Assembly (NCBI GenBank): GCA_019751895.1
Contig: JAIEMU010000140.1
Coordinates: 1,819 to 65,818, forward strand
Length of the DNA stretch: 64,000 nucleotides
Direction: 5' to 3'
From: Sphingobacteriaceae bacterium
GTDB lineage: Bacteria > Bacteroidota > Bacteroidia > Sphingobacteriales > Sphingobacteriaceae
Positions 22,694 through 38,246 of this stretch are shown here, in pieces. The notes below the pieces were generated by a model, which saw only the letters and a program-made list of their open reading frames with translations, ran no database searches and was not told the origin of the DNA. The translations under genes were made by a program, and so were the position numbers. How positions within the stretch are numbered: position 1 is the first letter of the stretch; the number at the start of each line of letters is the position of its first letter.

Positions 22694-23007
22694 AACACGG
22701 ATAAAACGGGTTTTACACCGATAAATTTCACGCCGATTTCGCTGATGTACGCAGAAAGATATTATTCTTTTTGACCTCCTGAGGCACGAAGAATCTAAAA
22801 AAATAAAGCGATTAGATTCCTCGCTTTGCTCGGAATGACAAAAGGGAAAAGTTTTTTTTAACACACTTTGTCATCCTGAGGAACGAAGGATCTAAACGAA
22901 GAAGGAACACGGATTGTACGGAAAAAACGGATGTTCACGGATTTCCTTCCTTTTTGACCTCCTGAGGCACGAAGAATCTAAACGAAAGCATTTTATTTCA
23001 CGCCGAA
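22694..23007. repeat. Left cluster of REP-like repeats
   Basis: TTTG(AC/TC)(C/A)TCCTGAGG(C/A)ACGAAG(A/G)ATCTAA units at about 22770, 22867 and 22953; an inverted unit at 22812-22842; CACGGAT-type units at about 22694 and 22906-22944. Confidence 0.85.
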
Positions 23008-23127
23008 AATTACTCTGATTTGATTCGGGCTTTTTAAAAAGTCAATCCTTAGTTTTACTTATTTTTATTTTTGTCAAAATATATACATACATTTGAATGT
23101 GTTTTGACATTATATAGCCAGACCAAA

Positions 23128-24404: not shown

Positions 24405-24772
24405 CCTATTTCAGGACAAGACATTCCGAACGAGGGTGTAGCGAGAAGGACGTTTCTAACGCCTTCTTATTCTTGCTAAATTCCCCTAATTGGAGTAAAC
24501 CTAGCCGCAAATACATTAGCTCCACTCCCCGTTGCAACAGCGTATCACCCCACCTATACGCCGATTTTTGCAAATAGATTTCTATTTTTTTGTTAATATG
24601 TAAAAATTTAACAAAAGATAAATATTTAATAAACAATATTTTAATCACTAAAAAAGCACACTGTGAAACCTTGCTTGTTAAAAATTGTAAAAAAAAATTT
24701 GCTTTTTGTAACAAGAAGATTACATTTGAAATTAATTAACTATTAACTAACAATTAACAAATCAACAAATTT

Positions 24773-27700
24773 ATGAAAAAACTTATATTAAGTTTGTTCA
24801 CGATGGTTATGATTACTGTAAGCGCTTTCGCACAAGATCGTGTCATTACAGGGGTAGTAACCTCAAGTGAAGACGGGCAGCCAATACCAGGTGCCTCAGT
24901 AAAAGTGAAGGGAATTGCCAACCTTGGTGTTACCACCGATGGAAATGGTAAATTTACTTTAACCGTTCCTGAAAAAGGAAAAGCATTAGAAATCTCTTAT
25001 TTAGGATATGCTAATTCAACAGTATCTATCGCCAGCACTACTAATGTAAAAGTTGTTTTAACTTCCGATTCTAAATCTTTAGATGAGGTGGTAATAACGG
25101 CGGGTGGTATTGTTCGTAACAAAAAAGAACAAGGATATGCCTCTACTAAGGTAAGTGCAGAAACTTTAAATGCAGGTAGAGCAACCACTGTTGCAAGTGG
25201 CTTAACAGGAAAAATAGCAGGTTTACAAATTAATCAAGTAGGAAGCGGTGTAAATCCTGATTTTAGAATTGTTTTTAGAGGGAACAGATCTCTTTCAGGA
25301 AATAACCAAGCATTGATTGTAATAGATAATGTTATTTCAACAAGTGAAGTTTTTGCTACATTGAATCCAGAAGATATAGAAGATATAACGGCATTAAACA
25401 GTTCTAGTGGTGCAGCATTATATGGTTCTCAGGCATCTAATGGAGCGTTGTTAGTTACCACTAAAAAAGGGAAAAAAGGCTCTGCACCTACGATTAAAAT
25501 AGCAAATACCTACGCCTTGGAGCAAGTAAGTTTTAATCCAAAAATGCAAAATAAATTTGGAGCAGGAACAGCGCCAAATACAGGAAATAATCAACTTTAC
25601 GAACCGTATGAAAACCAATCTTTTGGACCAGCTTTTGATGGTTCAGATCGTAATGTAGGAAGAGTTTTTGCTGATGGAACTTATCAAGTTTTAAAATATT
25701 CAGCGGTAGATGATAAATTCAAGTTCTGGGAAACAGGTAAATCTAATCAAACCGATTTTTCAATTTCAAGTGGAGATGAAAACTCAACGATGTTTTTATC
25801 GGGACAATATTTAGATGGGACAGGGATTACACCAAAGGATACCTATAATAGGTTGACTACGAGAATGAGTGGAACTAGAAAATTTACTGATAAATTTTCA
25901 ACATCTTACTCTCTTTCTTATGTTGAAAATAAAAGAGATGTATTATCTGTTGGATTTGGTACTGGAAACAATACCAATTCAAGCAACAGTGGAGTTTCTA
26001 CACTATATCAGTATATACTGGGTACACCTGCCAATATTCCGTTATTAAGTTATAAAAATTGGGAAACTGATATTTATGCAAACCCAAATGGATATTTTAA
26101 TGATTATGACGGAAACCCATATTGGTTAATTGATAATTCAAGAGCTAAAATAGCCAACAACTTATTTGCGGGGTCTATTGAATTTAAATATAAAGTTATT
26201 AAGGATTTAGATTTAACCTATAGAGCGGGTATAAATAAGTTTACTTTAACAGGAAAAAGTAGAGAAAGAGGTTTTACTTATACGGACTATGCAAAAACAA
26301 TTAGTGGAGGAAACAGAAAGGATTTGGCTAGTTCAATTGCTGAATTTGAGACAACTACAGGTCAATTTGTTACGGATTTTATTGCAAATTATAAAAAAGA
26401 TATTAAAGATTTCAGTATAAATTTAATTGGCGGAGCTAATTTGAAAACATTTAATTCAAAAACAGTATCAGCAAATGGTACTGCATTGCAAATAGATGAG
26501 TTATACAATTTGTCTAACATTACAGGAAAACCCGATGCTACCGAAAGAAATACCTTGACACGCGATGGAGGGGTGTATTTGGATGCAACTTTTGGTTTTA
26601 AAAAGTATCTTTACTTGCACTTGACAGCAAGAAATGACTGGGATTCTCGTTTAGAAAAACAAAATAGATCTGTTTTTTATCCTGCGGCAGATATGTCTTT
26701 TGTAGCTACGGATGCTTTCCCAGTATTAAAAACAAAAGAATACTTAACGTACTTAAAATTAAGAGCTAGCTATTCAAAAGTAGGTTTAGTGAATTTGGAT
26801 CCATATCAAACTAGCCCGGTGTTTAACTCGGTAACAGGTTTTACGAGTGGTACATTCTATTCTCAAAGTGCTAACTTGGTATCTAATGACTTAAGACCAG
26901 AGATTACTACTGGAATTGAGTTTGGTGCTGATTTTAGATTGTATAAAGATATCGTAGAGGGTTCATTCACGTATTATAAATCTAAATCAGTAGATCAAGT
27001 AATTAGTACGAGCGTTTCGAATTCAACAGGTTTTACTAACTTTTTAACAAATGCAGGTCGTTTGGATAATGAAGGTAAAGAGGTTAAATTATCGGTAAAT
27101 GCAATTAAGACTAAAAATTGGGGATTGACCATTGGAGGAAATTATGCCAATAATGAAAACATCTTAGTAGAGTTATTACCAACGGTAAAAAAAGCGGCAG
27201 TTAATGGAAGTAGTTTGGTTTTTGGTGAAGAAGGAAAACTATTCCCTCAAATCATTGGAACAGATTATGAAAGAGATAGTCAGGGTCGTGTAATTGTAGA
27301 TAGATTAACGGGTAATCCAAAACAGGCAGCAGCAGCTGTAAATTTTGGCAATACTGCTCCTAAACATATTTTAGGTTTAAATCTTGAAGCGAGATGGAAA
27401 GATTTTACAATTTCATCTTTATTCGAATATCGTGGAGGCTATGTACATTATAATTCATCTTCATTTACGTTTGATAGAACAGGTTCTACAGCTCGTTCAG
27501 CATATTACAATAGAGAACGTTTTGTGATGCCTAATTCATCTTATTTAGATCCTGTTTCGGGCGAGTATAAAGAGAATACAAACATCACGGTATCGGACGG
27601 AGGAGCTGGTTTTTGGGCAACTAGTGCTCTTGTAGGTGTAAATAGCAATGGCGTATATTCGGGTAGTTATTGGAAGTGGAGAGAGCTATCTTTTTCTTAC

Positions 27701-27916
27701 AATTTGCCTAGTAAATTGCTTAAGAAAATGGGTGTAATTAAAAGTGCCAAGTTTAGTGCACAAGGTAGAAACTTATTATTATGGACACCAGCATCTAACG
27801 AGTTTTCAGATCCTGATTTTAGTGCGAATGGTACCAATAATGCTCTTGGTGTAGTAAACACAACAATAACTCCCCCTAGTAGATATTTTGGAGGAACAAT
27901 ATCACTTACATTTTAA
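24773..27916 (+). CDS. susC: SusC/RagA TonB-dependent outer membrane transporter
   Basis: Signal peptide, N-terminal extension, LNPEDIE...AALYGSQASNGALLVTTKKG plug motif, C-terminal Phe. Confidence 0.95.
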   Translation: MKKLILSLFTMVMITVSAFAQDRVITGVVTSSEDGQPIPGASVKVKGIANLGVTTDGNGKFTLTVPEKGKALEISYLGYANSTVSIASTTNVKVVLTSDSKSLDEVVITAGGIVRNKKEQGYASTKVSAETLNAGRATTVASGLTGKIAGLQINQVGSGVNPDFRIVFRGNRSLSGNNQALIVIDNVISTSEVFATLNPEDIEDITALNSSSGAALYGSQASNGALLVTTKKGKKGSAPTIKIANTYALEQVSFNPKMQNKFGAGTAPNTGNNQLYEPYENQSFGPAFDGSDRNVGRVFADGTYQVLKYSAVDDKFKFWETGKSNQTDFSISSGDENSTMFLSGQYLDGTGITPKDTYNRLTTRMSGTRKFTDKFSTSYSLSYVENKRDVLSVGFGTGNNTNSSNSGVSTLYQYILGTPANIPLLSYKNWETDIYANPNGYFNDYDGNPYWLIDNSRAKIANNLFAGSIEFKYKVIKDLDLTYRAGINKFTLTGKSRERGFTYTDYAKTISGGNRKDLASSIAEFETTTGQFVTDFIANYKKDIKDFSINLIGGANLKTFNSKTVSANGTALQIDELYNLSNITGKPDATERNTLTRDGGVYLDATFGFKKYLYLHLTARNDWDSRLEKQNRSVFYPAADMSFVATDAFPVLKTKEYLTYLKLRASYSKVGLVNLDPYQTSPVFNSVTGFTSGTFYSQSANLVSNDLRPEITTGIEFGADFRLYKDIVEGSFTYYKSKSVDQVISTSVSNSTGFTNFLTNAGRLDNEGKEVKLSVNAIKTKNWGLTIGGNYANNENILVELLPTVKKAAVNGSSLVFGEEGKLFPQIIGTDYERDSQGRVIVDRLTGNPKQAAAAVNFGNTAPKHILGLNLEARWKDFTISSLFEYRGGYVHYNSSSFTFDRTGSTARSAYYNRERFVMPNSSYLDPVSGEYKENTNITVSDGGAGFWATSALVGVNSNGVYSGSYWKWRELSFSYNLPSKLLKKMGVIKSAKFSAQGRNLLLWTPASNEFSDPDFSANGTNNALGVVNTTITPPSRYFGGTISLTF

Positions 27917-27925
27917 TTCAAAAAA

Positions 27926-29599
27926 ATGAAACACAAATTAAAAATAGCACCAATAATGGTCGCAGCCTTACTTTCTTTCACTTCGTGTAAAAAAGATTAT
28001 TTTGAAATCAATAAAAACCCAAATTTAGCAATAGCAGCACCACCAAAATTGGTTTTTCCTGAGGCGCTTAGATCAACTGCACCACTAATGGTAACGTATC
28101 AAGATTATGGTTCGTGGGTAGTTGGTTATCAGTCAGGAGCCCAAGGTGTATCTTTTTCAGGTACAGTAGGCTATACGCAACAATATACTCATGCTGATTA
28201 CAACACATTGTTCAATAACGCATTTAATAATTTAAAGAATTATCAATATGTGATTAATGCAGCGAAAAGCAATCCAAAAGATGTGCTCTTTTCATCAACT
28301 TCGCGTATAATGAAGTCATTTATTTATCAAATGTTGGTAGATCAGTATGGAGATGTACCTTATACTGATGCTTTACAAGGAAGTAATTTAATTATTCCTA
28401 CTTATGACAAAGCACCAGATATTTATAAATCGTGTATAACAGAAATTAACGAATCAATAGCTTTGCTATTAAAGAATCAAACAAATACTGACGTTAATCC
28501 ATTATCTACTGCTGATATTATGTTTGAAGGAGATATTAGTAAATGGATAAAATTTGCGAATAATATTAAGCTTAGACTTTTGATACGAGCTAAGGATTCT
28601 CCAGAATTGAAAGATTTTGTAACGGCTGAATTTGCTAAATTTCCAACTACAGATGCGTTTTTATTAGAAGACGTTTTGATTAATCCAGGCTATTCTTCAG
28701 CAAGTGATAATATTAATCCAACTTGGAGTACTTATTATGGTACTTTCAATGGTTCAGCTATGGCGGGTATTAGCAGTCAAAGAGTTCCCACTCCATTTAT
28801 ATTAGGATTTTATAATGGGGCTAAATTGAAAGATTTAAGAAGGGGAGCTTTAATTTATAAAAATAGAATAATAAAGGCTGGTGAAGTGGCAGATCCTGCC
28901 CCATTAGTTAATGTTCGACCAGCTTACAGTCAATTAGGTTGGAAAATAGTAGTAAATACACCACAGCAAATAGATGGAACTTTAGATAAAGAGGCTCCTG
29001 CATGGTATACTGGCTCGGGGTCTAAAGCAACCGCAACAGAGGCGCAAGGTATTATTAAAAGTAAATTAGCAGGTCAACCAGTTATGTTAGAATCTGAAAT
29101 ATATTTTTTATTGGCAGAAGCAGCACTTTTAGGCAAGAACTTAAATGGGCTTTCTGATGCGGATAATTTTACCAAAGGTATAGAAGCATCATTTAGATAC
29201 TTATCAAAGTTTGGATCTACTAATGCGGTTAAATCGGGTGAAAATCCAGTAACTGATGCGGCAACATATAAAACAAATAATGCAGGCAACTATTTAGTTG
29301 ATTATTCTTTAGCTAGTTCTACTGAACAAAAATTAGAAGCGATTATTACGCAAAAATATATTGCCCTTAATTTTATACATGGTCATGAGGCTTGGAGTGA
29401 ATTCCGTCGTACAGGTTATCCAAAATCAGATGCATCGACTAATCCAGTTACTAGTTTTAGATCTTTAGAAGGTTTTTCTTCTAGGGCTGACGGTCTTCCT
29501 GTTCGTTTGTTGTATCCTCAAACTGAGATGAATTTAAATTCAAATGCTCCAGTTGGATTGAGTCCGTATAATAACCGTATATTTTGGGATGCCAATTAA
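27926..29599 (+). CDS. susD: SusD/RagB lipoprotein
   Basis: Lipobox FTSC-KKD; YGDVPY, W.KFAN..KLR, IITQKYIA and EAWSEFRRTGYP motifs. Confidence 0.93.
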   Translation: MKHKLKIAPIMVAALLSFTSCKKDYFEINKNPNLAIAAPPKLVFPEALRSTAPLMVTYQDYGSWVVGYQSGAQGVSFSGTVGYTQQYTHADYNTLFNNAFNNLKNYQYVINAAKSNPKDVLFSSTSRIMKSFIYQMLVDQYGDVPYTDALQGSNLIIPTYDKAPDIYKSCITEINESIALLLKNQTNTDVNPLSTADIMFEGDISKWIKFANNIKLRLLIRAKDSPELKDFVTAEFAKFPTTDAFLLEDVLINPGYSSASDNINPTWSTYYGTFNGSAMAGISSQRVPTPFILGFYNGAKLKDLRRGALIYKNRIIKAGEVADPAPLVNVRPAYSQLGWKIVVNTPQQIDGTLDKEAPAWYTGSGSKATATEAQGIIKSKLAGQPVMLESEIYFLLAEAALLGKNLNGLSDADNFTKGIEASFRYLSKFGSTNAVKSGENPVTDAATYKTNNAGNYLVDYSLASSTEQKLEAIITQKYIALNFIHGHEAWSEFRRTGYPKSDASTNPVTSFRSLEGFSSRADGLPVRLLYPQTEMNLNSNAPVGLSPYNNRIFWDAN

Positions 29600-29621
29600 T
29601 TAATTATTTAATATAAAAATC

Positions 29622-30545
29622 ATGAAAAAATATTCAAAAATTATAGCTTTAATGCTAATGTCATTTGTTAGTGTTATAAGTTCTTGTATTAAGCAGGATG
29701 CTATATATAAAGATGGGGGTAACAATGGTATGATACAAATAGATTTACCAACTCATAATATTGCGGCACCTCGTTTATACCCTGTTAAACCAACATCTTT
29801 AATGGTGGAAAAAAGTGTCGATTTTCCTATTACAGTTGAGTATATGGGCACAGAGCCTGCACCTCAAGATGTAACGATAGAGCTTATTTTAAATAATGCC
29901 GCTATTGACGCTTATAATGCCTACATGGATGAAAAAAAGTACACAGGGGATAAGTATGAGGCTTTACCTGCAAATATGTACACTTTACCTACATCATTAA
30001 GCGTTGTGATACCAAAAGGACAAAGAAAAGTAGTGGTGCCAATTACTTGTAACACTACTTTGTTTGACGATACCAAAAAATATGCTTTGGCATTCACAAT
30101 TAAGTCGGTAAGCGCAGGAACAATAAGCGCCAATTATAGTACAGGTTTATACGCCATCACGCGTAATAAATTTGATGGTATTTATACATTGGAAGTAGGA
30201 AGTACGATGGCTAGTTCTAATACTGCAGTAGCAACGGGTTCAATAGCAGGTGTCGCGGATATTAGTTTAATATCTGAGACAGGAGACAGACTTTTATTTG
30301 TGCCTATTTGGGCAGATGGAACAAAGGTTGTTGATTTGGGTAATACAACAATTACAGGCACAGCGGTTTCTGCAGCAGGAAATACAACGCTAAAAAACAC
30401 AGGAACAAATAAGTATGATGCGGCTACTAAAACTTATACGTTAAATTTCCAGTGGCTTTCAAAATCTACATCAGATCCAACAGGAACAACAACTTTTACA
30501 AATACTGCGGTTATGATTTTGAAGTATAAAGGTTCAAGATTTTAA
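29622..30545 (+). CDS. DUF1735-like surface lipoprotein
   Basis: Lipobox ISSC; IDAYN...YEALP..MYTL..V.IPKG...YALAFTI pattern, downstream of susD. Confidence 0.7.
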   Translation: MKKYSKIIALMLMSFVSVISSCIKQDAIYKDGGNNGMIQIDLPTHNIAAPRLYPVKPTSLMVEKSVDFPITVEYMGTEPAPQDVTIELILNNAAIDAYNAYMDEKKYTGDKYEALPANMYTLPTSLSVVIPKGQRKVVVPITCNTTLFDDTKKYALAFTIKSVSAGTISANYSTGLYAITRNKFDGIYTLEVGSTMASSNTAVATGSIAGVADISLISETGDRLLFVPIWADGTKVVDLGNTTITGTAVSAAGNTTLKNTGTNKYDAATKTYTLNFQWLSKSTSDPTGTTTFTNTAVMILKYKGSRF

Positions 30546-30567
30546 GTAAAGTATTTTAATTTTCTCA

Positions 30568-30610
30568 ACCCTCTCACTCAAATTCTATTCGAGTGAGGGG
30601 GTTTATTTTT
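30568..30610 (+). terminator. Terminator of the susCD operon
   Basis: AACCCTCTCACTC-loop-GAGTGAGGGGGTT followed by a T-rich tract. Confidence 0.75.
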
Positions 30611-30696
30611 TAACACATTTTACCCTGAGCGCAGCGAAAGACCTAAGAGGATAAAGGGCAATAATTTTATAGATGTAAAAAAGTGAAGTGTTAATT

Positions 30697-30906
30697 TTTC
30701 GGTCAAAGGCCATGAAAATTAGATGAGCACATTTGCAAAATGCGCTAGTGAGTAAGGGTTTGCAAAACCTACGATTTGGGTTCGACATGACAAATATCGA
30801 ACAGCGGGAGTAAAATTCATGCAGATTTTAATTGGCACTCTATTACATTGCCAACAACCCAATGAATTAGCAGGAAGATAAATTTTATGACAAAGGAAGT
30901 GGCTGA
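30697..30906 (+). repeat. Repeat copy A: 111-bp palindromic core (30697-30807) plus 99-bp right arm (RAYT-like remnant)
   Basis: Direct alignment with copies B and C. Confidence 0.92.
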
Positions 30907-31212
30907 TTAAAGTTGTAAAGTTAATTTTAGGTGTCCTCCTAAGCCAGTTTGGATAATTTTCATCAAGGTCGAAAGTCGAATGTCGCTTGCATTATTTTCA
31001 ATTCGAGAAATATACGATTTGTTTGTTCCGCACTTTTCGGCAAGTTCTTCTTGTGTCATACCAAGTTTATGTCTTGCTTCTTCAAGTAAAACGCCAAGTT
31101 GGAAACTTTCAAATTCTTGCTCCCATTGCTCTCTTTTTTTTGCTCCTCTTTTTCCGTATTTGTTGTCAAGAATTTCGTCAAGCGTTGTGATGTTACTTTC
31201 TTTCGTTTTCAT
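30907..31212 (-). CDS. Xre-HTH antitoxin (HigA-like)
   Basis: LGMTQEELAEKCGTNKSYISRIENNASDIRLSTL; directly downstream of a RelE/Gp49-like gene. Confidence 0.88.
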   Translation of the reverse strand: MKTKESNITTLDEILDNKYGKRGAKKREQWEQEFESFQLGVLLEEARHKLGMTQEELAEKCGTNKSYISRIENNASDIRLSTLMKIIQTGLGGHLKLTLQL

Positions 31213-31534
31213 ATTCTACCTTTATTTTTAAAGCTTTTTCAATTTCAGTTTTTGGTGTTTTTTGAGATTTTTTTTGAAAACCATTTCCTAAAACGACTAG
31301 ATTCCCTTTGTCGAAAAAAGCAAAAATTCTAAAAATGTTTCCACCTAATTCTACCCGAACTTCGAAAAGTCCGTCTGTCCCAGTTATATGGTCAAAATAT
31401 TTTTTAGGAACTCTGTCAATTGTCCGTAACAGATTTAAAGTTCATTCGATTTTTCGTTGAACCTCGTCTGTTTGGTCTTGGTAGAAGTTTAAAAAATATT
31501 TCTTATATGCAACAACTTGTCTTACGGCTTTCAC
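31193..31534 (-). pseudogene. RelE/HigB (Gp49-like) toxin with a nonsense codon
   Basis: Manual translation from GTG 31534: MKAVRQVVAYKKYFLNFYQDQTDEVQRKIE*TLNLLRTIDRVPKKYFDHITGTDGLFEVRVELGGNIFRIFAFFDKGNLVVLGNGFQKKSQKTPKTEIEKALKIKVEYENERK*; single TGA at 31442-31444. Confidence 0.88.
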
Positions 31535-31616
31535 TTTACAAAGTTAACTATTCAGACAACAATGTGCAAACTTTTAAGAGTTGTTTGTTGAGCAATATTG
31601 TTTTAGAGTGGTTGTC

Positions 31617-31775
31617 TTGAAGTAAATCAAACAGTCTGTGACTACCAAGATAGAGGTATTTGTATTTCGGTCAAAGACCATGAAAATTAGATGAGCACAT
31701 TTGCAAAATGCGCTAGTGAGTAAGGGTTTGCAAAACCTACCATTTTGGTTCGATATTTGTAATGTCGAACAGCGG
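31617..31775 (+). repeat. Repeat copy B: 48-bp left arm plus 111-bp core (31665-31775)
   Basis: Direct alignment with copies A and C. Confidence 0.92.
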
Positions 31776-31819
31776 AGGGACTTCGGGATTTCAAATACCG
31801 AAGAGAGAGTGAGGAACTT

Positions 31820-32158
31820 TTACTCGTTTAATAGTACTTCAACTTCTTTTTGTAAAATAGGTAGATTTTTGATGACAATTCCCCAAATTACATCATCAGA
31901 AACGGAATCATATCCATGAATTATTCTATTGCGTACATCAACAATTTTTCTAGCGTTTGAAATTGAAATTTCACCATTTTCTTTAAGAATTCGGCTCATT
32001 GCTTCTCCAATGATTTCGATGTTTCTTTCAATTGCTCTTTTGGTTCTTAAATCATTTTGATAAATTTCAAACATTTTTGGAGTTTCAATAAAGTAACTTT
32101 CAATTTCATTTATTGAGCTTAAAATGTCATAAAGCCAAGTTTTAAGAGAATTATCCAT
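31820..32158 (-). CDS. HepT-like HEPN RNase toxin (DUF86)
   Basis: AIERNIEIIGEA and RNRIIHGY (RX4HXY) motifs. Confidence 0.9.
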   Translation of the reverse strand: MDNSLKTWLYDILSSINEIESYFIETPKMFEIYQNDLRTKRAIERNIEIIGEAMSRILKENGEISISNARKIVDVRNRIIHGYDSVSDDVIWGIVIKNLPILQKEVEVLLNE

Positions 32159-32450
32159 AAATCAATATTTTGCTTTGATTTAATGTTTTTCTAAAATATG
32201 GATTTTTGATAGCTTTTTCTTCTAATAAATCAATACTTCTTTTTAAAATATTTTCAAGGGAAAATTTTAAGTTGTAGTAGTTGTCTCCATAATCTAAAAC
32301 ATCCAAATTTTCAAAATCAACTATCAAATCAACATCGCTTTCGTTGTTGAATTTGTCGGTTAAAACAGATCCAAAAGCGTATAAAGATTTTACTTTGTGC
32401 GCTTTGCATAAATTTAAGATGTCTTTATTGTGATTTTCTAATAAGTTCAT
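32151..32450 (-). CDS. MntA-like minimal nucleotidyltransferase antitoxin
   Basis: FGSVLTDKFNNESDVDL (GSX10DXD); probable start MNLLEN at 32450. Confidence 0.9.
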   Translation of the reverse strand: MNLLENHNKDILNLCKAHKVKSLYAFGSVLTDKFNNESDVDLIVDFENLDVLDYGDNYYNLKFSLENILKRSIDLLEEKAIKNPYFRKTLNQSKILIYG

Positions 32451-32596
32451 GTAATTGTTGATTTTATTCAAAAGTACAAAAAAATAATTAGCCTTCAATT
32501 TTCACTTTTGTTTTTTGCAAAGGCTAAAAATGTTGATGTGCAGAACTAATTTGTTTTTTTACACTATCTAGCGCATTTTTCCGTAGGATAAATGTG

Positions 32597-32854
32597 TTGA
32601 AGTAAATCAAATAGTCTGTGACCGCCAAGATAGTGGTATTTGTATTTCGGTCAAAGACCATGAAAATTAGATGAGCACATTTGCAAAATGCGCTAGTGAG
32701 TAACAGTTTGCAAAACCTACGATTTTGGTTCGAGATTACAAATGCCGAACAGCGGGAGTAAAATTCATACAGATTTTAATTGGCACTCTATTACATTGCC
32801 AACAACCCAATGAATTGGCAGGAAGATAAATTTTATGTCAAGGGAAGTGATTGA
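32597..32854 (+). repeat. Repeat copy C: left arm + core (32645-32755) + right arm (complete element)
   Basis: Shares the left arm with B and the right arm with A. Confidence 0.92.
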
Positions 32855-32956
32855 CTCTCTTCAAAAATTAATGATTCTATCGATTCTAAAAATGGTTTTA
32901 ACCCAATTGTCTAAAAAATAATTTTGTACATTTGGATGAAAAATATTTTGAATAGG

Positions 32957-33163
32957 ATGAGAGTTTTATTAGACATAAAAGATAGCAAGGCCGCCCACTT
33001 AATGGAGGTGCTAAAAGGTTTATCTTACGTAAAAACCAAGACTATTTCTGAAGAAAAAGCTTTTTTGATAGAAGAAGTTAAGGAAGCGGTAGAAGAAATG
33101 AAATTGATTAAAGCAGGCAAAAAGAAAGCTCGGAACGCAGAAGATTTTTTAAATGAGTTATAG
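32957..33163 (+). CDS. Putative antitoxin
   Basis: MRVLLDIKDSKAAHLMEVLKGLSYVK...KEAVEE...GKKKARNAEDFLNEL; overlaps a RelE-like start. Confidence 0.75.
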   Translation: MRVLLDIKDSKAAHLMEVLKGLSYVKTKTISEEKAFLIEEVKEAVEEMKLIKAGKKKARNAEDFLNEL

Positions 33164-33200
33164 TGTTAAATCTATCCAAGTTTTTGAAAAGCAAGCAAAA
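33153..33200 (+). pseudogene. 5' stub of a RelE/HigB-like toxin
   Basis: MSYSVKSIQVFEKQAK resembles RelE/HigB N-termini; similarity then stops and the frame runs into the convergent gene. Confidence 0.6.
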
Positions 33201-33225
33201 AGCTTCTTAATTTACACACGTTATA

Positions 33226-33465
33226 TTATGGTGTTTTTCTTGTTCGCTTTTGTCGAAAAAAATAGGATACTCCAAATATTAAGTTTGCGACTGTGCCAAA
33301 ATAAAGGGTGTAATATTGTTCTTTAGATAAACAAGGAGGACAATTAATATCGTTAATACAAGGCTCACATTGCGGATTGTAATAGATAAACAACGCACAT
33401 AGTATTAGATTAATCGCAATTAATTTTATAAAATGATTACGAATGATTTTAGTTAGTAAAGGCAT
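33226..33465 (-). CDS. Small two-TM protein with a Cys-rich loop
   Basis: TM-PQCEPCINDINCPPCLS-TM. Confidence 0.65.
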   Translation of the reverse strand: MPLLTKIIRNHFIKLIAINLILCALFIYYNPQCEPCINDINCPPCLSKEQYYTLYFGTVANLIFGVSYFFRQKRTRKTP

Positions 33466-33491
33466 GATATTTTCTTTCTAAATCAAAACAC

Positions 33492-33692
33492 TTAACCCTC
33501 CTCAAAAATCTCAACGACTCTACCTACTTGTCCATCTTCCAATCGTACTTTTATGCCTCGACTATGAAAAGGGGCGGAGGTAAGCAATTTTTCTACAATT
33601 CCGCGGGTGCGGTTTCCGTTTCTTTGGTCTTTTTTAAGGATAATATCTACTTCTAATCCTGGGTAAATATCATTTCTATTTTGTCCGTTCAT
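33492..33692 (-). CDS. YwbE/DUF2196 family protein
   Basis: V.I.LKKDQR.G..TRG.V..LLT....H.RGIKVRLEDGQVGRV; start MNGQNR at 33692. Confidence 0.88.
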   Translation of the reverse strand: MNGQNRNDIYPGLEVDIILKKDQRNGNRTRGIVEKLLTSAPFHSRGIKVRLEDGQVGRVVEIFEEG

Positions 33693-33696
33693 TTTT

Positions 33697-35733
33697 TTAT
33701 TTTTCAAACCTTTCGGCAAACATTTTTTCTAAAGCAAACATTTCATCACGTAGGCGGGCAGCGAGTAAAAAGTCCATTTCTTTGGCTGCGGTGGTCATCT
33801 CTTTGCGGGTTTTGGCAATGGTTTTTTCCAAATCGGTTTTGCTCATAAATTGTACCACAGGGTCGGCGGCAATGCTGATTTGGTTCGTTTCTTGATACTT
33901 TTTAACATGCGCTTTGTTGTCCGAAAAATCCAAAACCGAACTTTGTTCAATAATTTCTTCTTTAGATTTGCCAACCGTTTTGGGTGTAATGTTGTGTTCG
34001 AGGTTATAGGCAATTTGTTTTTCTCTACGTCTATTGGTTTCGTCTATGGTGCGTTGCATCGACTGAGTCATGTTATCGGCATACATAATCACACGTCCTC
34101 GGTCGTTTCTAGCGGCTCTGCCAATGGTTTGTATCAAAGCCCTGTCCGAACGTAGAAAACCCTCTTTGTCGGCGTCTAAAATCGCTACTAAACTTACTTC
34201 AGGCAAATCCAATCCTTCTCTCAATAAGTTGATACCTATCAAAACATCAAATTCTCCTAAACGCAATCCTCTTAAAATTTCTACACGTTCCAAAGTTTTC
34301 ACTTCCGAGTGGATGTATCGACATTTTATATTTAACCTGTCCATGTATTTGGTTAATTCTTCCGCCATGCGCTTGGTAAGCGTGGTGACTAAAATACGGT
34401 CGCCCATTTTGATGGTTTTGTCGATTTCGTCCAACAAATCATCTACTTGGTTGATGGCAGGTTTTACCTCAATTAAGGGGTCTAACAATCCCGTAGGTCG
34501 GATCACTTGCTCAATGATGTGTCCATTTGTTTTTTGTAGTTCATAGTCGGCTGGTGTTGCACTTACATAAACCGTTTGTGGAGCAAGGGACTCGAATTCT
34601 TCAAAATTTAAAGGTCGGTTGTCTAAAGCCGAAGGCAATCGAAAACCATATTCTACCAAAGATAGTTTTCGGGAGCGGTCGCCGCCATACATGGCTCTAA
34701 TTTGAGGGACGGTAACGTGACTTTCGTCTATCACCATCAGGTAATCATCTGGAAAATAATCGAGTAAGCAGAAAGGTCTCATGCCTTGCGATCTTCCATC
34801 AAAAAAACGAGAGTAATTTTCTATACCCGAACAATAGCCCAATTCTTTCATCATTTCGATGTCGAAATTTACCCTTTCTTCCAATCTTTTGGCTTCTAGC
34901 CGATGACCATCGTTGTCGAGTTGCGTTTTTCGTATTTCCAACTCTTGTTGAATAGCCCAAATGGCATCATTAAATTTTTCTTTTGGTGTAACGAACAAAT
35001 TAGCAGGATACAAAGCCATTTCGGTAAATTTTTCGATGGTTTTGCCGGTGGCATAATCTATTTCGCTCAATTCTTCTATCTCATCGCCAAAAAACGAAAT
35101 GCGATAGGCGCAATCTAAATAAGCAGGGAAAACATCTACGGTATCTCCCTTAACCCTAAAAGTACCTCGCTTGAAATCGTCGATGGTTCGGGCGTATAAA
35201 ATTTGAACTAAAGTATGTAAAAAAGTGTTTCTTGATATTTTTTGCCCCACGGCAAAGCGAAATACAGATTTCGAAAAATCTTCGGGATTTCCCATACCAT
35301 AAATGCAAGAGATAGAAGAAACGACAATCAAATCTCTTCTGCCACTCATCAAAGAGGAGGTGGTGCGCAAACGCAATTTCTCAATCTCTTCATTGATACT
35401 TAAATCTTTTTCGATGTAGGTATTGGTACTTGCTATAAAAGCTTCGGGCTGATAATAATCGTAGTAGGAAACAAAATAATTGACCGAATTTTCAGGAAAA
35501 AACTGTTTAAACTCGCCATATAACTGAGCGGCTAAGGTTTTGTTGTGGCTTAAAATTAGCGTAGGCTTTTGGGTTTCTGCAATGAGGTTGGCAATGGTAA
35601 AAGTTTTGCCGGAACCTGTTACGCCTAACAAAGTTTGGTAATTTTCGTTGGCTTCTACTCCTTGTACCAATTGTTTGATGGCCGTTGGTTGGTCGCCGGT
35701 TGGCTTGTAATCGGATACGAGTTTAAATTTCAT
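33697..35733 (-). CDS. uvrB: Excinuclease ABC subunit B
   Basis: PTGDQP, GVTGSGKT, YYDYYQPEA, DESH and INLLREGLD motifs; start MKFKL at 35733. Confidence 0.98.
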   Translation of the reverse strand: MKFKLVSDYKPTGDQPTAIKQLVQGVEANENYQTLLGVTGSGKTFTIANLIAETQKPTLILSHNKTLAAQLYGEFKQFFPENSVNYFVSYYDYYQPEAFIASTNTYIEKDLSINEEIEKLRLRTTSSLMSGRRDLIVVSSISCIYGMGNPEDFSKSVFRFAVGQKISRNTFLHTLVQILYARTIDDFKRGTFRVKGDTVDVFPAYLDCAYRISFFGDEIEELSEIDYATGKTIEKFTEMALYPANLFVTPKEKFNDAIWAIQQELEIRKTQLDNDGHRLEAKRLEERVNFDIEMMKELGYCSGIENYSRFFDGRSQGMRPFCLLDYFPDDYLMVIDESHVTVPQIRAMYGGDRSRKLSLVEYGFRLPSALDNRPLNFEEFESLAPQTVYVSATPADYELQKTNGHIIEQVIRPTGLLDPLIEVKPAINQVDDLLDEIDKTIKMGDRILVTTLTKRMAEELTKYMDRLNIKCRYIHSEVKTLERVEILRGLRLGEFDVLIGINLLREGLDLPEVSLVAILDADKEGFLRSDRALIQTIGRAARNDRGRVIMYADNMTQSMQRTIDETNRRREKQIAYNLEHNITPKTVGKSKEEIIEQSSVLDFSDNKAHVKKYQETNQISIAADPVVQFMSKTDLEKTIAKTRKEMTTAAKEMDFLLAARLRDEMFALEKMFAERFEK

Positions 35734-35800
35734 AGTTCGCAAAGTTAAGCTACTCTTTTGATTATGCAAAGCATCGTCAAGAAATAGATTTCTGCCGCAT

Positions 35801-35848
35801 AAAAAAAGCGATGCAATCGTTATTTGACTGCATCGCTTTCTGTTTTTT
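35801..35848 (-). terminator. Terminator after the M1 peptidase
   Basis: AAAGCGATGCAGTC-loop-GATTGCATCGCTTTTTTT on the minus strand. Confidence 0.8.
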
Positions 35849-35864
35849 AAAATTCAGCTTGAAT

Positions 35865-38246
35865 TTATTTTTTCTTTTCTAATTGCATTGGGTTTGAACC
35901 AACGGATTGACCTCTTGCTGGCGCAGCAGCACTACGAGCTTTAAACAATTGTAGTTTTGAAACTTCAGCAGCTTCGGCACCCCAAACGTTGTTTTTCTCA
36001 TCAATATCTGCTGTTTCACGCATTGGGTCTAATTTTATAGAAGCCACTTCTTTGTCGTGAACATAAAATTTAGATGTTTTTTGTTCATTGAGTCTCCAAA
36101 TTTGCGCTGGGATTTTATCGGTCCAAGTGCTACCGTCTTTGAACGTAAATTGAACGATAATTGGCATCACTAAACCGCCTTTATTGCTAAAATGGACTTC
36201 ATAGAAAAACTTATTGCTGTATTTTTCCTTTTCCTCTGCGGTAAATTCTTCGGCAGGTAAAATAGCAGGCTCAGGCATTTTTTTGTTAGCCAAAGTGGTG
36301 TCTATTTGTACCAAACCACGGGTATATTTCCAATAAAAATCTCTAGCTTCTAAGTCTGTATCGGTATAAAACTTGCGATTTTCGGCTCTATTTCTAATTT
36401 TAGAAATGTCCTCAAATGCGTTTACCATTGGTTTGTCTATTCCTTTTGGTTTTCTGCTTTCAGGTTTAGAAATCGCAGCATTGAAATCTGCTTTGGCATA
36501 TTTTACGCTGTCCAATGCAATATCACATGGGTCGGTGGTATAAAACCAACCTCTCCAAAACCAATCTAAATCTTCGCCGCTGGCATCTTCCATGGTTCTG
36601 AATAAATCGGCAGGAGTAGGGTGTTTGAACGCCCAACGTCTCGAATATTCTTTAAAAGCATAGTCAAATAATTCTCTACCCATAATGGTTTCACGCAAAA
36701 TGTTTAATCCTGTTGCAGGTTTTGAATACGCGTTTGGACCAAAATTTACGATGTTTTCAGAATTTGACATGATAGGCTCCAACTGATCTTTTGGCAATTT
36801 CATGTAGTTTACAATCGTATGTGCAGGACCTTTTTTGCTTGGGAATTTGTTGTCCCAAAGTTCTTCGGTTAAATATTCAACAAAAGAGTTCAAACCTTCG
36901 TCCATCCAACTCCATTGACGCTCGTCACTATTGATAATCATCGGGAAAAAGTTGTGTCCAACTTCGTGAATGACTACGCCCAACATTCCGTTTTTAGTAG
37001 CTTCGCTGTAAGTTCCGTCTGCATCGGTACGACCATAGTTAAAGCAAATCATTGGATATTCCATTCCGTTGGCAGCTTCAACACTTTGCGCTACTGGGTA
37101 TGGATAAGGAATGGTAAAATCTGAATAGGTTTTGATGGTATGCGCAACGGCACGAGTAGAAAATTTGCGGTACAAATTGTAGGCTTCTTTTCCGTAAAAA
37201 CTCATGCACATCACTTTATTGCCTTCAATGTCTTGTGCCATGGCATCCCAAACAAACTTTGGAGAAGAACCCCAAGCAAAATCACGAACATTGTTGGCTT
37301 CAAAAATCCAAGTTTTTTTAGCTTCGGTGTTGTTTTTTTCTGCATTTTTAGCTTCTGCAAGCGTTACCACTTCAACAGGAGCATTTGCATTTTTAGCTTT
37401 TTGGTAGCGCTCCAATTGTACTGGAGTTAAAACAGAATCGTAGTTTTTACATTCTCCTGTTGAGGTAACCATGTGGTCAGCAGGAACAACCATTTTTACT
37501 TTAAAGTTTCCAAAAGTTAAAGCAAATTCACCTCTTCCTGTAAATTGATGATTTTGCCATCCTTGAAAATCGCTATACACACACAAGCGTGGATACCATT
37601 GTGTCATCGTAAAAATGTAATTTTTATCCTCAGGGAAGTATTCATATCCTCCACGACCACCACCAGCTATTCTGTCTGTGATTTTGTAATTCCAATCTAC
37701 GTTGAAAACGAATTTCTCGCCAGATTTTAGCGCAGGAATTTCAACACGCATCATGGTTTTGTTGACGGTATATTTTAATTTTTTACCATTTATATCGCTA
37801 ATGTTTACGATGTTGATGCCTTGTCCATTGTCTAAATTTTTATCCACAGATTTATCTAAAGCTGTAGTGCTTATTTTAGAGGGCATTTTGCTAGCGCTTT
37901 GGTAATTGGCGTTTTTTAAGTTGTTGTGCTCATTTTCATCCAATTGCAACCATAAATAAGTCAGCACATCGGGCGAATTGTTGAAATAGGTAATGGTTTC
38001 GCTACCTGTAAGAAGTTGCTTTTTTTCATCCAATTCACAATTGATGTTGTAATCGACTTTTTGTTGCCAATATTTTACACCTGCAGCGCCACTTGCCGTA
38101 CGTTGTTCGTTTGGCGTAGGCAAAATACCACCCAGTTGTTCAAATTTGTTTCCGTGGTTACTTCCAGGATTGTGGAGGATGTTTTGGGCGCTGGTGGTTT
38201 GGCTGTAAATGGCGAGCACCAAGGCGCATTTGAAAATTTTATTCAT
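35865..38246 (-). CDS. Exported M1 family zinc aminopeptidase
   Basis: NGMEYP, HEVGH...WMDEG (HEXXH+E); signal peptide. Confidence 0.93.
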   Translation of the reverse strand: MNKIFKCALVLAIYSQTTSAQNILHNPGSNHGNKFEQLGGILPTPNEQRTASGAAGVKYWQQKVDYNINCELDEKKQLLTGSETITYFNNSPDVLTYLWLQLDENEHNNLKNANYQSASKMPSKISTTALDKSVDKNLDNGQGINIVNISDINGKKLKYTVNKTMMRVEIPALKSGEKFVFNVDWNYKITDRIAGGGRGGYEYFPEDKNYIFTMTQWYPRLCVYSDFQGWQNHQFTGRGEFALTFGNFKVKMVVPADHMVTSTGECKNYDSVLTPVQLERYQKAKNANAPVEVVTLAEAKNAEKNNTEAKKTWIFEANNVRDFAWGSSPKFVWDAMAQDIEGNKVMCMSFYGKEAYNLYRKFSTRAVAHTIKTYSDFTIPYPYPVAQSVEAANGMEYPMICFNYGRTDADGTYSEATKNGMLGVVIHEVGHNFFPMIINSDERQWSWMDEGLNSFVEYLTEELWDNKFPSKKGPAHTIVNYMKLPKDQLEPIMSNSENIVNFGPNAYSKPATGLNILRETIMGRELFDYAFKEYSRRWAFKHPTPADLFRTMEDASGEDLDWFWRGWFYTTDPCDIALDSVKYAKADFNAAISKPESRKPKGIDKPMVNAFEDISKIRNRAENRKFYTDTDLEARDFYWKYTRGLVQIDTTLANKKMPEPAILPAEEFTAEEKEKYSNKFFYEVHFSNKGGLVMPIIVQFTFKDGSTWTDKIPAQIWRLNEQKTSKFYVHDKEVASIKLDPMRETADIDEKNNVWGAEAAEVSKLQLFKARSAAAPARGQSVGSNPMQLEKKK

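What the first reader, a model, noticed from the sequence alone, without database searches (positions are those of the whole stretch)
30697..33200. Array of TA cassettes separated by three copies of a modular REP-like element: candidate cassette-capture system
Seen: a 111-bp core recurs in direct orientation at 30697, 31665 and 32645 (968 and 980 bp apart). It is built of palindromes: GCACATTTGCAAAATGCGC, GGTTTGCAAAACC and GTTCGA-N11-TCGAAC-AGCGG. Each interval holds exactly one two-gene TA operon (RelE-like/HTH, then MNT/HEPN), and a third TA pair follows copy C. The copies are mosaic: A = core + right arm, B = left arm + core, C = left arm + core + right arm. The first antitoxin's stop codon abuts the end of copy A. 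Inference: unrelated ~0.7-kb TA modules carry conserved ends and are stacked at the core, like an integron array but with REP-type sites and no integrase in the window. The catalyst may be a HUH tyrosine transposase acting in trans.
Basis: partly seen in the sequence, partly recalled or inferred. Interest (0 to 1): 0.85.

Follow-up and report, generated by a model that had tools for sequence, protein, structure and literature searches.

The report
REP mosaics framing toxin-antitoxin modules
Three copies of a composite hairpin repeat really do separate three unrelated toxin-antitoxin gene pairs, but the repeat is built from ordinary Bacteroidota REP-type elements plus a dead transposase-gene stub, so this looks like a recombination-built toxin-antitoxin islet, not a dedicated integron-like capture machine.

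Summary
Three direct copies (92-93% identical over 111 nt) separate a Gp49/HTH pair, an MNT/HepT pair and a third pair.

The "core" is a composite of two independent dispersed repeats:
- X is a roughly 135-nt structured, lineage-specific repeat, with about 10 copies in the genome.
- Y is a two-hairpin REP found across Bacteroidota. Elsewhere it lies near RAYT subclass 2.6 genes.

The "right arm" is the stub of a RAYT subclass 2.4 gene.

Homologous TA cassettes in 129 of 400 family genomes lack these arms. Both RAYT-type sequences are dead: a truncated 2.6 gene and the 2.4 stubs. Cassette polarity is mixed. An attC covariance model does not hit the repeats. So this is neither an integron nor a demonstrated capture system.

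Some features do point to recombination at the repeats:
- X/Y repeats are enriched next to TA genes in this genome.
- The unique X-Y junction occurs three times, so the composite was duplicated as a unit.
- A 57-nt block is almost identical in all copies, while its flanks differ by 6-14%.

I therefore read the locus as a TA islet stacked and reshuffled by recombination in the repeat, with decaying toxins.

The scan has found this pattern before on other Bacteroidota DNA. Side finding: attC-type arrays next to a Xer/IntI-like recombinase are common in this family.

The parts
30697..30753 (+). Copy A, 3' part of repeat X. This is the 57-nt block that is nearly identical in all three copies. X's 5' two thirds are missing here.
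30757..30807 (+). Copy A, repeat Y: a two-hairpin REP. Hairpin 1 is GGTTTGCAAAACC. Hairpin 2 is at 30780-30802, followed by the tail AGCGG.
30808..30906 (+). Right arm of copy A: an internally deleted relic of a RAYT (subclass 2.4, YIxNNP type) gene 3' end. It ends at the relic's own TGA (30904-30906) and carries a TAG in frame.
30907..31212 (-). Cassette 1 antitoxin (HTH_3, HigA/HipB-like), intact.
31196..31534 (-). Cassette 1 toxin (Gp49/RelE-HigB-like). It has an in-frame TGA at 31442-31444 in this assembly; the X1 contig reads TGG there.
31613..31775 (+). Copy B: partial X (its 5' third is missing) plus Y. The hairpin-2 loop is flipped (TGT instead of ACA).
31782..31807 (+). Second REP hairpin of the Y2 subtype, directly after copy B and 12 nt before the HepT stop codon.
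31820..32158 (-). Cassette 2 toxin, HepT (HEPN RNase).
32151..32498 (-). Cassette 2 antitoxin, MNT nucleotidyltransferase. The likely start is the ATG at 32450.
32566..32698 (+). Copy C, complete repeat X. It has 12-bp terminal inverted repeats (CTAGCGCATTTT / AAAATGCGCTAG). The 150-nt stretch 32554-32703 that holds it folds as single-stranded DNA with z = -6.1 (plus strand) and -5.5 (minus strand).
32705..32755 (+). Copy C, repeat Y (two-hairpin REP).
32756..32854 (+). Right arm of copy C: the second copy of the RAYT 2.4 gene relic, ending at its TGA (32852-32854).
32954..33163 (+). Cassette 3 antitoxin. It matches no Pfam or NCBIfam model, but it is paired with a RelE/ParE-type toxin in G188 and G409.
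33153..33205 (+). Cassette 3 toxin stub. About 17 codons are homologous to the 109-aa toxin of G188; the rest is deleted.
22796..22898 (+). Left copy of a roughly 100-nt direct repeat from a different REP family. It flanks the mobile-mystery A/B (HTH + Fic) pair at 23071-24167. The right copy is at 24165-24266. This is the same layout in a second place in the window.

Best explanation
The locus is a small, decaying toxin-antitoxin islet. It was built and is reshuffled by recombination within a composite of ordinary interspersed repeats. It is not a dedicated cassette platform.

Shown: the ancestral composite is X, then Y, then a RAYT-gene stub.
- X is a lineage-specific structured repeat of about 135 nt.
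- Y is a two-hairpin REP of a Bacteroidota-wide family whose cognate enzyme is RAYT subclass 2.6.
- The stub is what remains of a RAYT subclass 2.4 gene.

Shown: the composite was copied as a unit.
- The X-Y junction exists nowhere else in the genome, yet it occurs three times here.
- So the copies arose by duplication of the composite together with TA insertion, not by three separate REP insertions.

Inferred: how the array formed.
- The simplest route is homologous recombination between a chromosomal copy and DNA carrying a TA operon next to the same composite. That DNA could be a circle or fragment from a sister strain or sister chromosome.
- This would be Campbell-type integration or unequal crossover. 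Each event adds one module and one repeat copy.
- Later deletions trimmed copies A and B.

Shown: a 57-nt block of X is almost identical in all copies, while sequence on both sides differs by 6-14%. Inferred: this is the signature of repeated crossover or gene conversion there.

Inferred from knowledge of REPs in enterobacteria: the hairpins probably also end or stabilise the TA transcripts.

Shown: the toxins are being inactivated while the antitoxins persist.
For: Repeat families:
- X and Y occur independently elsewhere in the genome: about 10 X copies (six or seven complete, the rest partial or at contig ends) and 23 Y hairpins. The Y hairpins are mostly convergent Y1/Y2 doublets 105-118 nt apart.
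- A Y-motif scan hit more than 118 loci across Cytophagales, Sphingobacteriales, Chitinophagales, Flavobacteriales and others.
- RAYT 2.6 genes lie within 8 kb of such REPs in 5 of 118 loci, against about 0.2 expected for a single-copy gene, and next to a Y2 copy on G000 contig C13.
- The right arm translates to KIHADFNWHS...NYIANNPMNWQEDKFY and aligns to intact RAYT genes in G038. The motif classes follow Quentin et al. 2018, PMC6006769.

Cassettes are not carried with the arms:
- TA homologues in 129 of 400 family genomes match only from the antitoxin stop codon to about 40 nt upstream of the toxin. The arms are not conserved.
- No Y-type REP lies near them in the 34 loci of other genomes holding homologues of the three cassettes that I inspected.

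Association with TA genes in this genome:
- Both Gp49 toxin genes, the orphan HigA-like antitoxin on C131 and a Bro-N gene on C104 are flanked by X/Y.
- 3 of about 9 TA loci lie next to X/Y, against about 16 of roughly 2000 other intergenic regions. That denominator is my rough estimate, not a gene count. Fisher p = 6e-5.
- A second TA-like pair in the window is flanked by 100-nt direct repeats of another REP family.

Signs of recombination between the copies:
- Divergence is non-uniform: 2 of 171 pooled pairwise differences in the X block against 23 of 162 in Y, p = 3e-6.
- Other samples carry the same flanks with variants swapped between copies. The X4 contig has A's left flank with C-like bases. 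The X1 contig has the cassette-3-linked copy with A-like and B-like bases.
Against: - No empty site, shorter array or excised circle was observed. The only 'skip' joints have 21-28 nt on one side and come from other repeat copies or other organisms.
- No conspecific genome was available. The repeat was not found in 91 same-genus genomes or in the rest of the 400 family genomes searched. The metagenome pattern scan found nothing.
- A 57-nt identical block is short for RecA-dependent exchange. It could instead reflect selection on a functional site, or a site-specific enzyme.
- SNP shuffling among copies could partly be an assembly artefact of short reads.
- The enrichment next to TA genes is also what a targeted insertion mechanism would give.
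Confidence: 0.55

Rival explanations
1. Dedicated single-strand cassette mobilisation. A RAYT (HUH Y1 enzyme) acting in trans cuts at the Y hairpins. These lie in direct orientation on one strand, like the left and right ends of IS200/IS605 elements. It would move hairpin-TA-hairpin units as circular single strands and stack them at the repeat.
For: - The Y hairpins flanking cassettes 1 and 2 are co-oriented.
- Y-type REPs are tied to RAYT 2.6 genes across the phylum.
- A RAYT relic sits inside two of the copies.
- X/Y repeats are enriched at TA and accessory genes in this genome.
- The same layout recurs in other Bacteroidota, according to earlier scan notes that I did not check.
Against: - The only RAYT 2.6 gene found in this genome stops before the catalytic YIHQNP motif, and the 2.4 copies are 99-nt stubs. 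The genome is only 80% complete, so an intact copy could be unassembled.
- Copy boundaries are ragged. A, B and C begin at different points in X, and B ends at the natural end of Y. They are not at one cleavage site.
- Cassette 3 and the C95 pair have the opposite polarity.
- Homologous cassettes in other genomes carry no Y hairpins.
- 118 REP loci elsewhere show no homologue of this window's TA proteins within 1.8 kb of the REP.
- To my knowledge, no RAYT has been shown to move passenger genes.
Confidence: 0.15
2. A degenerate integron, or a Xer-module (pdif-like) array. The repeats would be decayed or variant attC/dif-type sites for a tyrosine recombinase encoded elsewhere.
For: - Homologues of cassette 1 sit in genuine attC-type arrays in G006 and at least 10 other family genomes. 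G006 has a Xer/IntI-like recombinase next to the array.
- G000 itself has two solo attC-like sites.
- X folds with two helices closed by its ends, loosely like an attC site.
- X's 3' end shares a 13-mer (AGCACATTTGCAA) with the G000 attC-like site on C13.
Against: - A covariance model built from 21 attC-like sites finds nothing at the window repeats (best E = 0.79, located elsewhere). nhmmer finds nothing either.
- There are no TAAC...GTTA ends, and no complementarity between the start of a cassette and the start of its own site.
- Only copy C has a complete, foldable X.
- Cassette orientation is mixed.
- No IntI above the curated cut-off, and no homologue of the G006 recombinase, is present in G000.
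- The repeats are direct copies, not the alternating inverted sites of pdif modules.
Confidence: 0.05
3. The repeats are kept for what they do, with no role in gene movement. They would terminate, insulate or stabilise the transcripts of closely packed TA operons. On this view the three copies arose by plain tandem duplication followed by gene replacement.
For: - On the minus strand, the Y hairpins lie just 3' of the cassette 1 and cassette 2 operons, between convergent or tandem genes.
- From my own knowledge, not checked in a paper here: REPs are known to terminate transcription and to protect mRNA 3' ends in E. coli.
- The 57-nt block could be conserved by selection.
Against: - Other X copies in the genome are only 73-86% identical to the array copies over the same block. 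The near-identity of the three array copies is therefore local homogenisation, not general constraint.
- Function alone does not explain why unrelated operons alternate with copies of one unique junction.
- No RNA data were available.
Confidence: 0.15
4. Partly an assembly artefact. The MAG assembler may have threaded repeats wrongly, so the order of the modules, or the assignment of variants to copies A, B and C, could be wrong.
For: - Public contigs from the probable source study break at each copy, and none spans a whole copy.
- The X1 contig disagrees with the window at 7 positions in copy C and 3 in cassette 1.
Against: - Junctions between unique sequence and repeat are seen independently: X1 records 1, 2, 3 and 8; X2 record 14; X3 records 18 and 22 from another study.
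- The junction from copy B's Y through the second hairpin to HepT (31776-31820) is not covered by any listed piece.
- At least three copies with four different unique neighbours must exist, so an array of three modules is unavoidable whatever their order.
Confidence: 0.1

Closest known systems
REP / BIME / REPIN elements and their RAYTs (TnpA_REP). In particular the 'atypical secondary structures' flanking Bacteroidetes RAYT subclass 2.6 (Quentin et al. 2018, PMC6006769; Bertels & Rainey 2011, PMC3116915; Nunvar et al. 2010, PMC2817692).
   Same: - Short extragenic hairpins occur in tens of copies.
- Two subtypes are arranged as inverted doublets about 110 nt apart and as mosaics.
- One copy lies beside a RAYT gene.
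- The family tracks a RAYT subclass across the phylum.
   Different: - Here a composite (X + REP + RAYT stub) is itself triplicated in direct orientation, with one unrelated TA operon between copies.
- Copy number is low: 23 hairpins in 2.3 Mb.
- The cognate RAYT found in this genome is truncated.
Sedentary chromosomal integron arrays and CALINs (for example Vibrio VCR arrays rich in TA cassettes), and the attC-type arrays found here in G006 and other family genomes.
   Same: - Repeats of about 110-290 nt alternate with gene modules of about 0.7 kb.
- Most modules are TA pairs.
- The spacing is similar.
- The same Gp49/HTH cassette family occurs in true attC arrays of relatives.
   Different: - The sites have no R/L box structure and no TAAC/GTTA ends.
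- The attC covariance model gives no hit.
- Only one copy can fold completely.
- Polarity is mixed.
- There is no integron integrase.
- The repeat parts are dispersed singly next to housekeeping genes.
Neisseria intergenic mosaic elements (dRS3/RS arrays) and 'minimal mobile elements'. These are strain-variable cassettes exchanged by homologous recombination. This comparison is from my own knowledge and from earlier scan note e1-731958.
   Same: Mosaics of interspersed repeats mark strain-variable islets. Modules are thought to be swapped by homologous recombination, not by a dedicated enzyme.
   Different: - Different phylum and different repeat families.
- Strain-to-strain swapping is inferred here, not observed.
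[quoted passage not shown] 2009, as summarised in Delihas 2011, PMC3184786).
   Same: A chromosomal TA module sits in an intergenic spot that holds a REP in other strains, and the TA module is decaying.
   Different: That is a single module at a single REP. This is an array with triplicated composite repeats.
pdif modules of Acinetobacter plasmids: TA and resistance modules bounded by XerC/D sites. This comparison is from my own knowledge.
   Same: Small modules, often TA pairs, are stacked between short recombination sites, with no transposase nearby.
   Different: pdif sites are 28-bp Xer sites in alternating orientation. Here the repeats are long, direct and REP-derived.

Membership tests
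REP/BIME/REPIN family (module Y) | A short, imperfectly palindromic extragenic sequence present in many copies per genome. | tested here: met
   There are 23 hairpins of 21-23 nt in about 14 loci of the 2.3-Mb assembly. All those inspected are intergenic.
REP/BIME/REPIN family (module Y) | Occurs as inverted doublets (REPINs) or as mosaics of two subtypes (BIMEs). | tested here: met
   Convergent Y1/Y2 pairs 105-118 nt apart are found on C5, C9, C66, C104 (two pairs) and C168. There is a wider pair on C172 and a tandem pair in copy B.
REP/BIME/REPIN family (module Y) | A cognate RAYT gene flanked by the same hairpins. | tested here: met
   - G000 C13 has a Y2 copy 25-50 nt from the RAYT start.
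- 5 of 118 Y-type loci in other Bacteroidota hold a subclass 2.6 RAYT within 8 kb. In Cyclobacterium roseum (L181) the gene is flanked on both sides.
- The G000 copy is truncated (NF047646, 72 bits against a cut-off of 80).
REP/BIME/REPIN family (module Y) | A conserved GTAG or CGTC tetranucleotide at the foot of the stem. | tested here: not met
   The nearest candidate is CTAy, 8 nt from hairpin 2, and its last base varies. This fits the 'atypical' structures reported for subclass 2.6.
Integron cassette array / CALIN | attC sites: R''-L''...L'-R' imperfect palindromes with AAC...GTT ends. | tested here: not met
   Covariance model R1, built from 21 family attC-like sites, gives no hit on the repeats (best E in the searched stretch 20000-36000 = 0.79, at another position). 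nhmmer also gives no hit.
Integron cassette array / CALIN | The first bases of each cassette are complementary to the start of the attC site at its own 3' end. | tested here: not met
   The rule holds in the G006 array (r2/r3, r3/r4, r5/r6, r6/r7). By inspection, the window junctions J1-J7 show no such relation.
Integron cassette array / CALIN | An integron integrase (IntI) adjacent or in the genome. | tested here: not met
   TIGR02249 gives nothing above its cut-off in G000, and nothing on contig C1. There is no homologue of the G006 recombinase above 35% identity. The genome is 80% complete.
Integron cassette array / CALIN | Cassettes co-oriented, with the site 3' of the gene. | tested here: not met
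   Cassettes 1 and 2 are on the minus strand and cassette 3 on the plus strand. The C95 pair has X at the antitoxin end.
IS200/IS605-type or RAYT-mobilised unit | A functional Y1 HUH transposase with both the HUH and the catalytic Tyr motif. | tested here: not met
   - The C13 gene has the HUH motif (NHIH) but ends before YIHQNP.
- The right-arm copies are 99-nt stubs.
- C7 encodes an IS200-like subclass 1.2 type protein, which is unrelated to Y.
IS200/IS605-type or RAYT-mobilised unit | Fixed cleavage points beside the end hairpins, and a conserved target sequence at each junction. | tested here: inconclusive
   The seven junctions share no motif and the copy boundaries differ. With only three copies, a degenerate site cannot be excluded.
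Type II / type VII toxin-antitoxin modules (the cassettes) | Two small overlapping genes with toxin and antitoxin domains. | tested here: met
   - Gp49 (E = 1e-17) with HTH_3 (E = 3e-13).
- HepT (E = 9e-18) with NTP_transf_2/Polbeta.
- The third pair is confirmed by the intact homologue in G188.
- Toxins 1 and 3 are defective in this assembly.

The most novel reading that the evidence does not exclude
In Bacteroidota, REP-type mosaics such as this X-Y composite may act as portable landing and exchange sites for single-operon addiction and defence modules. Modules would leave and enter as circles through a short identical block (here 57 nt). The catalyst would be a RAYT, or another enzyme encoded elsewhere. 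This would be a REP-based counterpart of the integron that exists alongside the attC-based arrays of the same bacterial family.
Probability: 0.15. Interest if true: 0.8.

Novelty: new variant of a known kind. Interest (0 to 1): 0.45.

Why it matters
How small TA and defence modules move around chromosomes without visible mobile-element genes is an open question.

This locus gives a clean example. One unique composite-repeat junction was copied along with each added module, and one short block has been kept identical. That points to recombination at interspersed repeats as the assembling force.

Together with similar cases the scan has met in other Bacteroidota, it suggests REP clusters are more than passive filler in variable islets.

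It also sets up a natural comparison. The same Gp49/HTH cassette family rides in genuine attC arrays in related genera. Integrons have barely been reported in this phylum.

Tried and rejected
Searches that found nothing:
- Rfam, permissive scan of 30300-33700: only chance-level hits.
- Metagenome pattern scan for the X block: 0 hits.
- Literature search for the Y motif as text: nothing relevant.

Tool not available:
Conspecific contigs therefore could not be fetched by exact protein.

Synteny:
- uvrB-ywbE is conserved in all 20 same-genus regions fetched.
- The downstream region, readable in 19 of them, differs and holds no TA array. There is therefore no informative 'empty site'.

Read laying:
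- The joints 30807->33311, 31769->32707 and 31770->32726 have only 21-28 nt on one side, or foreign inserts.
- I attribute them to other REP copies or other organisms, not to excision products.
- The small-share runs X2-X6 are not used as evidence of habitat.

Readings considered and rejected:
- The flipped hairpin as a programmed invertible switch. Rejected because hairpin 2 is a near-perfect 9+3+9 palindrome. Only the 3-nt loop is inverted (also on C104), which is a common hairpin-mediated template-switch change.
- The similarity of X's 3' end and Y's hairpin 1 to attC boxes as a sign of homology. It is not significant by HMM or covariance model.
- The G038-type RAYT 2.4 as the partner of Y. 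It has no Y-type REPs beside it and does not appear in the 118 REP loci.
- Recoding of the in-frame stops. The two Gp49 genes carry different stop codons (TGA and TAG), so these are ordinary nonsense mutations.


Full report
**1. Observation**

The repeat is real.
- The repeat finder and alignment show three direct copies at 30697-30807, 31665-31775 and 32645-32755, spaced 968 and 980 nt apart and 92-93% identical.
- Copies A and C continue together for 99 nt on the right (6 differences). Copies B and C continue together for 52 nt on the left (5 differences).

The intervening genes are as described, with three corrections.
- Cassette 1 is an HTH_3 antitoxin plus a Gp49/RelE-like toxin. The toxin carries an in-frame TGA at 31442-31444.
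- Cassette 2 is MNT plus HepT.
- Cassette 3, on the other strand, is an antitoxin plus only the first 17 or so codons of a RelE/ParE-type toxin. The full homologue in G188 is 109 aa.
- A contig from run X1, a drinking-water metagenome that is probably the source study, reads TGG instead of TGA. An intact toxin-1 allele therefore exists.

**2. What the repeat is made of**

BLASTN against the window's own genome shows that the 'core' is two independent repeats joined together. The genome is 2.3 Mb in 217 contigs and 80% complete.

Module X:
- It spans 32566-32698 in copy C, the only complete copy at this locus.
- It has 12-bp terminal inverted repeats.
- The 150-nt stretch that holds it folds strongly as single-stranded DNA (z = -6.1).
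- About seven further copies or part-copies exist (C74, C34, C60, C9, C95; partial on C20 and C2). Several lie at contig ends.
- It was not found in 91 same-genus genomes or in the rest of the 400 family genomes searched.

Module Y:
- It has two hairpins. Hairpin 1 is GGTTTGCAAAACC. After about 10 nt comes hairpin 2, with a consensus of TTCGACATT-ACA-AATGTCGAA followed by CAGCGG.
- There are 23 such hairpins of two subtypes in the genome, mostly as convergent doublets 105-118 nt apart. This is classic REPIN/BIME anatomy.
- A degenerate 26-nt pattern for hairpin 2 hit more than 118 loci across many Bacteroidota orders, always with the same two-hairpin layout.
- Five of these 118 loci also hold a small HUH transposase of RAYT subclass 2.6 (YIHQNP motif). 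About 0.2 would be expected by chance.
- In this genome a Y2 copy abuts such a gene on contig C13.
- Quentin et al. [quoted passage not shown]
- Y therefore belongs to that REP family.

The right arm:
- It translates to the C-terminal end of a different RAYT (subclass 2.4, YIxNNP), with an internal deletion of about 18 codons.
- It ends exactly at that gene's stop codon.
- Intact relatives occur in G038.
I confirm both.

**3. Is it a cassette system?**

Against:
- A family-wide BLASTN found homologues of all three cassettes at 65-84% DNA identity in 129 of 400 genomes. Homology runs only from the antitoxin stop codon to about 40 nt upstream of the toxin. The arms are never included.
- None of the 34 loci of other genomes holding homologues of the three cassettes that I inspected has a Y-type hairpin.
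- Y-type REP loci elsewhere show no homologue of this window's TA proteins within 1.8 kb of the REP.
- Polarity is inconsistent: cassette 3 is reversed, and the C95 pair has X at the antitoxin end.
- The copy boundaries are ragged.
- The genome's only subclass 2.6 RAYT is cut off before its catalytic tyrosine motif. The 2.4 copies are stubs. No recombinase lies on the 67-kb contig.

For some causal link between repeats and modules:
- In this genome both Gp49 toxin genes, an orphan HigA-like antitoxin (C131) and a Bro-N gene (C104) are flanked by X/Y.
- 3 of about 9 TA loci lie next to X/Y, against about 16 of roughly 2000 other intergenic regions. That denominator is my rough estimate, not a gene count. 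Fisher p = 6e-5.
- A second TA-like pair in the window (mobile mystery proteins A and B) is bracketed by 100-nt direct repeats of another REP family.
- The X-Y junction is unique to this locus yet present three times, so the composite was duplicated together with module gain.
- Divergence is strikingly uneven. The first 57 nt of the core differ at 2 of 171 pooled pairwise positions, while Y differs at 23 of 162 (p = 3e-6). The outer arms differ by 6-10%.
- Other X copies are only 73-86% identical over that block. The identity is therefore local homogenisation or a repeated crossover point, not general constraint.
- Contigs from other samples combine the same flanks with variants swapped between copies. 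Assembly error could contribute to this.

**4. Integron test**

While tracing cassette 1, I found a real attC-type system in relatives.
- Same-genus genome G006 has nine repeats of about 135 nt on an 11-kb contig. They have TAAC...GTTA ends.
- The bases after GTTA are complementary to the bases before TAAC of the next repeat. This is the cassette rule of integrons.
- The bottom strand folds into R and L helices.
- A second contig carries a 380-aa Xer/IntI-like recombinase followed by four more sites. Its scores are NF040815 194 bits and TIGR02249 178 bits, both below their cut-offs.
- A covariance model of 21 such sites finds them in 36 of 151 family genomes (20 of 37 genera). It also finds them directly after cassette-1 homologues in at least 10 genomes.
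- The same model finds two solo sites in G000 but nothing at the window repeats.

The window array is therefore not an integron array, although its first cassette belongs to a family that travels as an integron-type cassette in relatives.

**5. Best reading**

The locus is a TA islet stacked and reshuffled by recombination within a composite of interspersed repeats, at the relic of a former RAYT 2.4 gene.

A Campbell-type or unequal exchange reproduces the observed mosaic:
- The exchange is between a chromosomal X-Y copy and DNA carrying a TA operon beside the same composite.
- It gives: left flank + core + stub; then cassette 1; then X + core + second hairpin; then cassette 2; then X + core + stub; then cassette 3.
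- Later trimming of A and B is still required.

The steps that are shown:
- composition of the repeat
- duplication of a unique junction
- uneven divergence among the copies
- enrichment next to TA genes
- absence of the arms in other genomes
- dead RAYTs
- decaying toxins

The recombination route itself is inferred.

The main rival is catalysis by a RAYT on the co-oriented hairpins. It is not excluded, because 20% of the genome is missing and no population data could be obtained.

**6. Comparison and novelty**

The parts are known kinds: REP/BIME/REPIN with RAYT, chromosomal TA modules, and TA decay. The arrangement is a variant I did not find described in the papers searched: a triplicated composite with a homogenised block, alternating with unrelated TA operons.

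Earlier notes of this scan report the same theme in at least five other Bacteroidota genomes. I did not re-test those notes.

**Limits**
- The assembly is a short-read MAG.
- The order of cassettes 1 and 2 is unverified.
- Only one read-laying run was allowed.

Noticed in passing
L085 (G006 contig C13, 1-11100) and L105 (G006 contig C14, 4959-10020): A same-genus genome carries an integron-like system.
- A 380-aa Xer/IntI-like tyrosine recombinase, below the curated IntI cut-off, is followed by attC-like sites of about 135 nt with TAAC...GTTA ends. There are at least 13 sites in arrays, plus solo sites.
- The cassettes obey the integron complementarity rule and include four Gp49/HTH TA pairs.
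- Covariance model R1 finds such sites in 36 of 151 genomes of the family (20 of 37 genera), with up to 21 or more per genome.
- IntegronFinder 2.0 (PMC9024848) reports a complete integron in Bacteroidetes only for Salinibacter ruber.
   Followed up: partly
G000 contig C13:23642-23780 (L112:4644-4781, minus strand) and contig C29:696-834: There are two solo attC-like sites in the window's own genome. The C13 site (71.6 bits) was itself one of the 21 sequences the model was built from, so its score is not independent. The C29 site scores 29.5 bits, E = 0.013. The C13 site lies upstream of a NucS-like/DUF4268-type gene, which is followed by a Y2 REP and the truncated RAYT 2.6 gene.
   Followed up: partly
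window 22796-22898 and 24165-24266, around 23071-24167: A mobile mystery protein A/B pair (HTH + Fic; TIGR02612 and TIGR02613) is bracketed by roughly 100-nt direct repeats (94% and 83% identical). These are built from a different REP family, with units of CCTGAGGMACGAAGRATCT. 35-nt inverted repeats lie outside them.
   Followed up: partly
G000 contig C95:4681-4941 and window 31196-31534: Both Gp49-family toxin genes of the genome are full length but interrupted by one nonsense codon each (TAG and TGA). Their HTH antitoxins are intact. The C131 HigA-like antitoxin has no recognisable toxin upstream.
   Followed up: partly
G000 contig C104:2675-3941: A Bro-N-domain gene (2899-3780) is flanked on both sides by the same Y1/Y2 REP doublet. 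It sits next to AAA-ATPase-like genes, in a possible defence islet.
   Followed up: no
G000 contig C9:5962-7845: Two tandem paralogous lipoprotein genes (6132-6827 and 6841-7539) are enclosed by a Y doublet on one side and by a Y2 hairpin plus an X copy on the other.
   Followed up: no
L121 and L117 (Algoriphagus iocasae), L176 (Cecembia rubra), L181 (Cyclobacterium roseum): In other Bacteroidota the Y-type REP forms tandem arrays of larger units, 230-960 nt apart (316-322 nt in Algoriphagus). In Cyclobacterium roseum two co-oriented copies flank an intact RAYT 2.6 gene.
   Followed up: no
window 21254-21514: A YoeB/Txe-type toxin gene lies about 1.5 kb upstream of the mobile mystery pair. The 12 kb around the SusC/SusD locus therefore holds five TA-type modules.
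   Followed up: no
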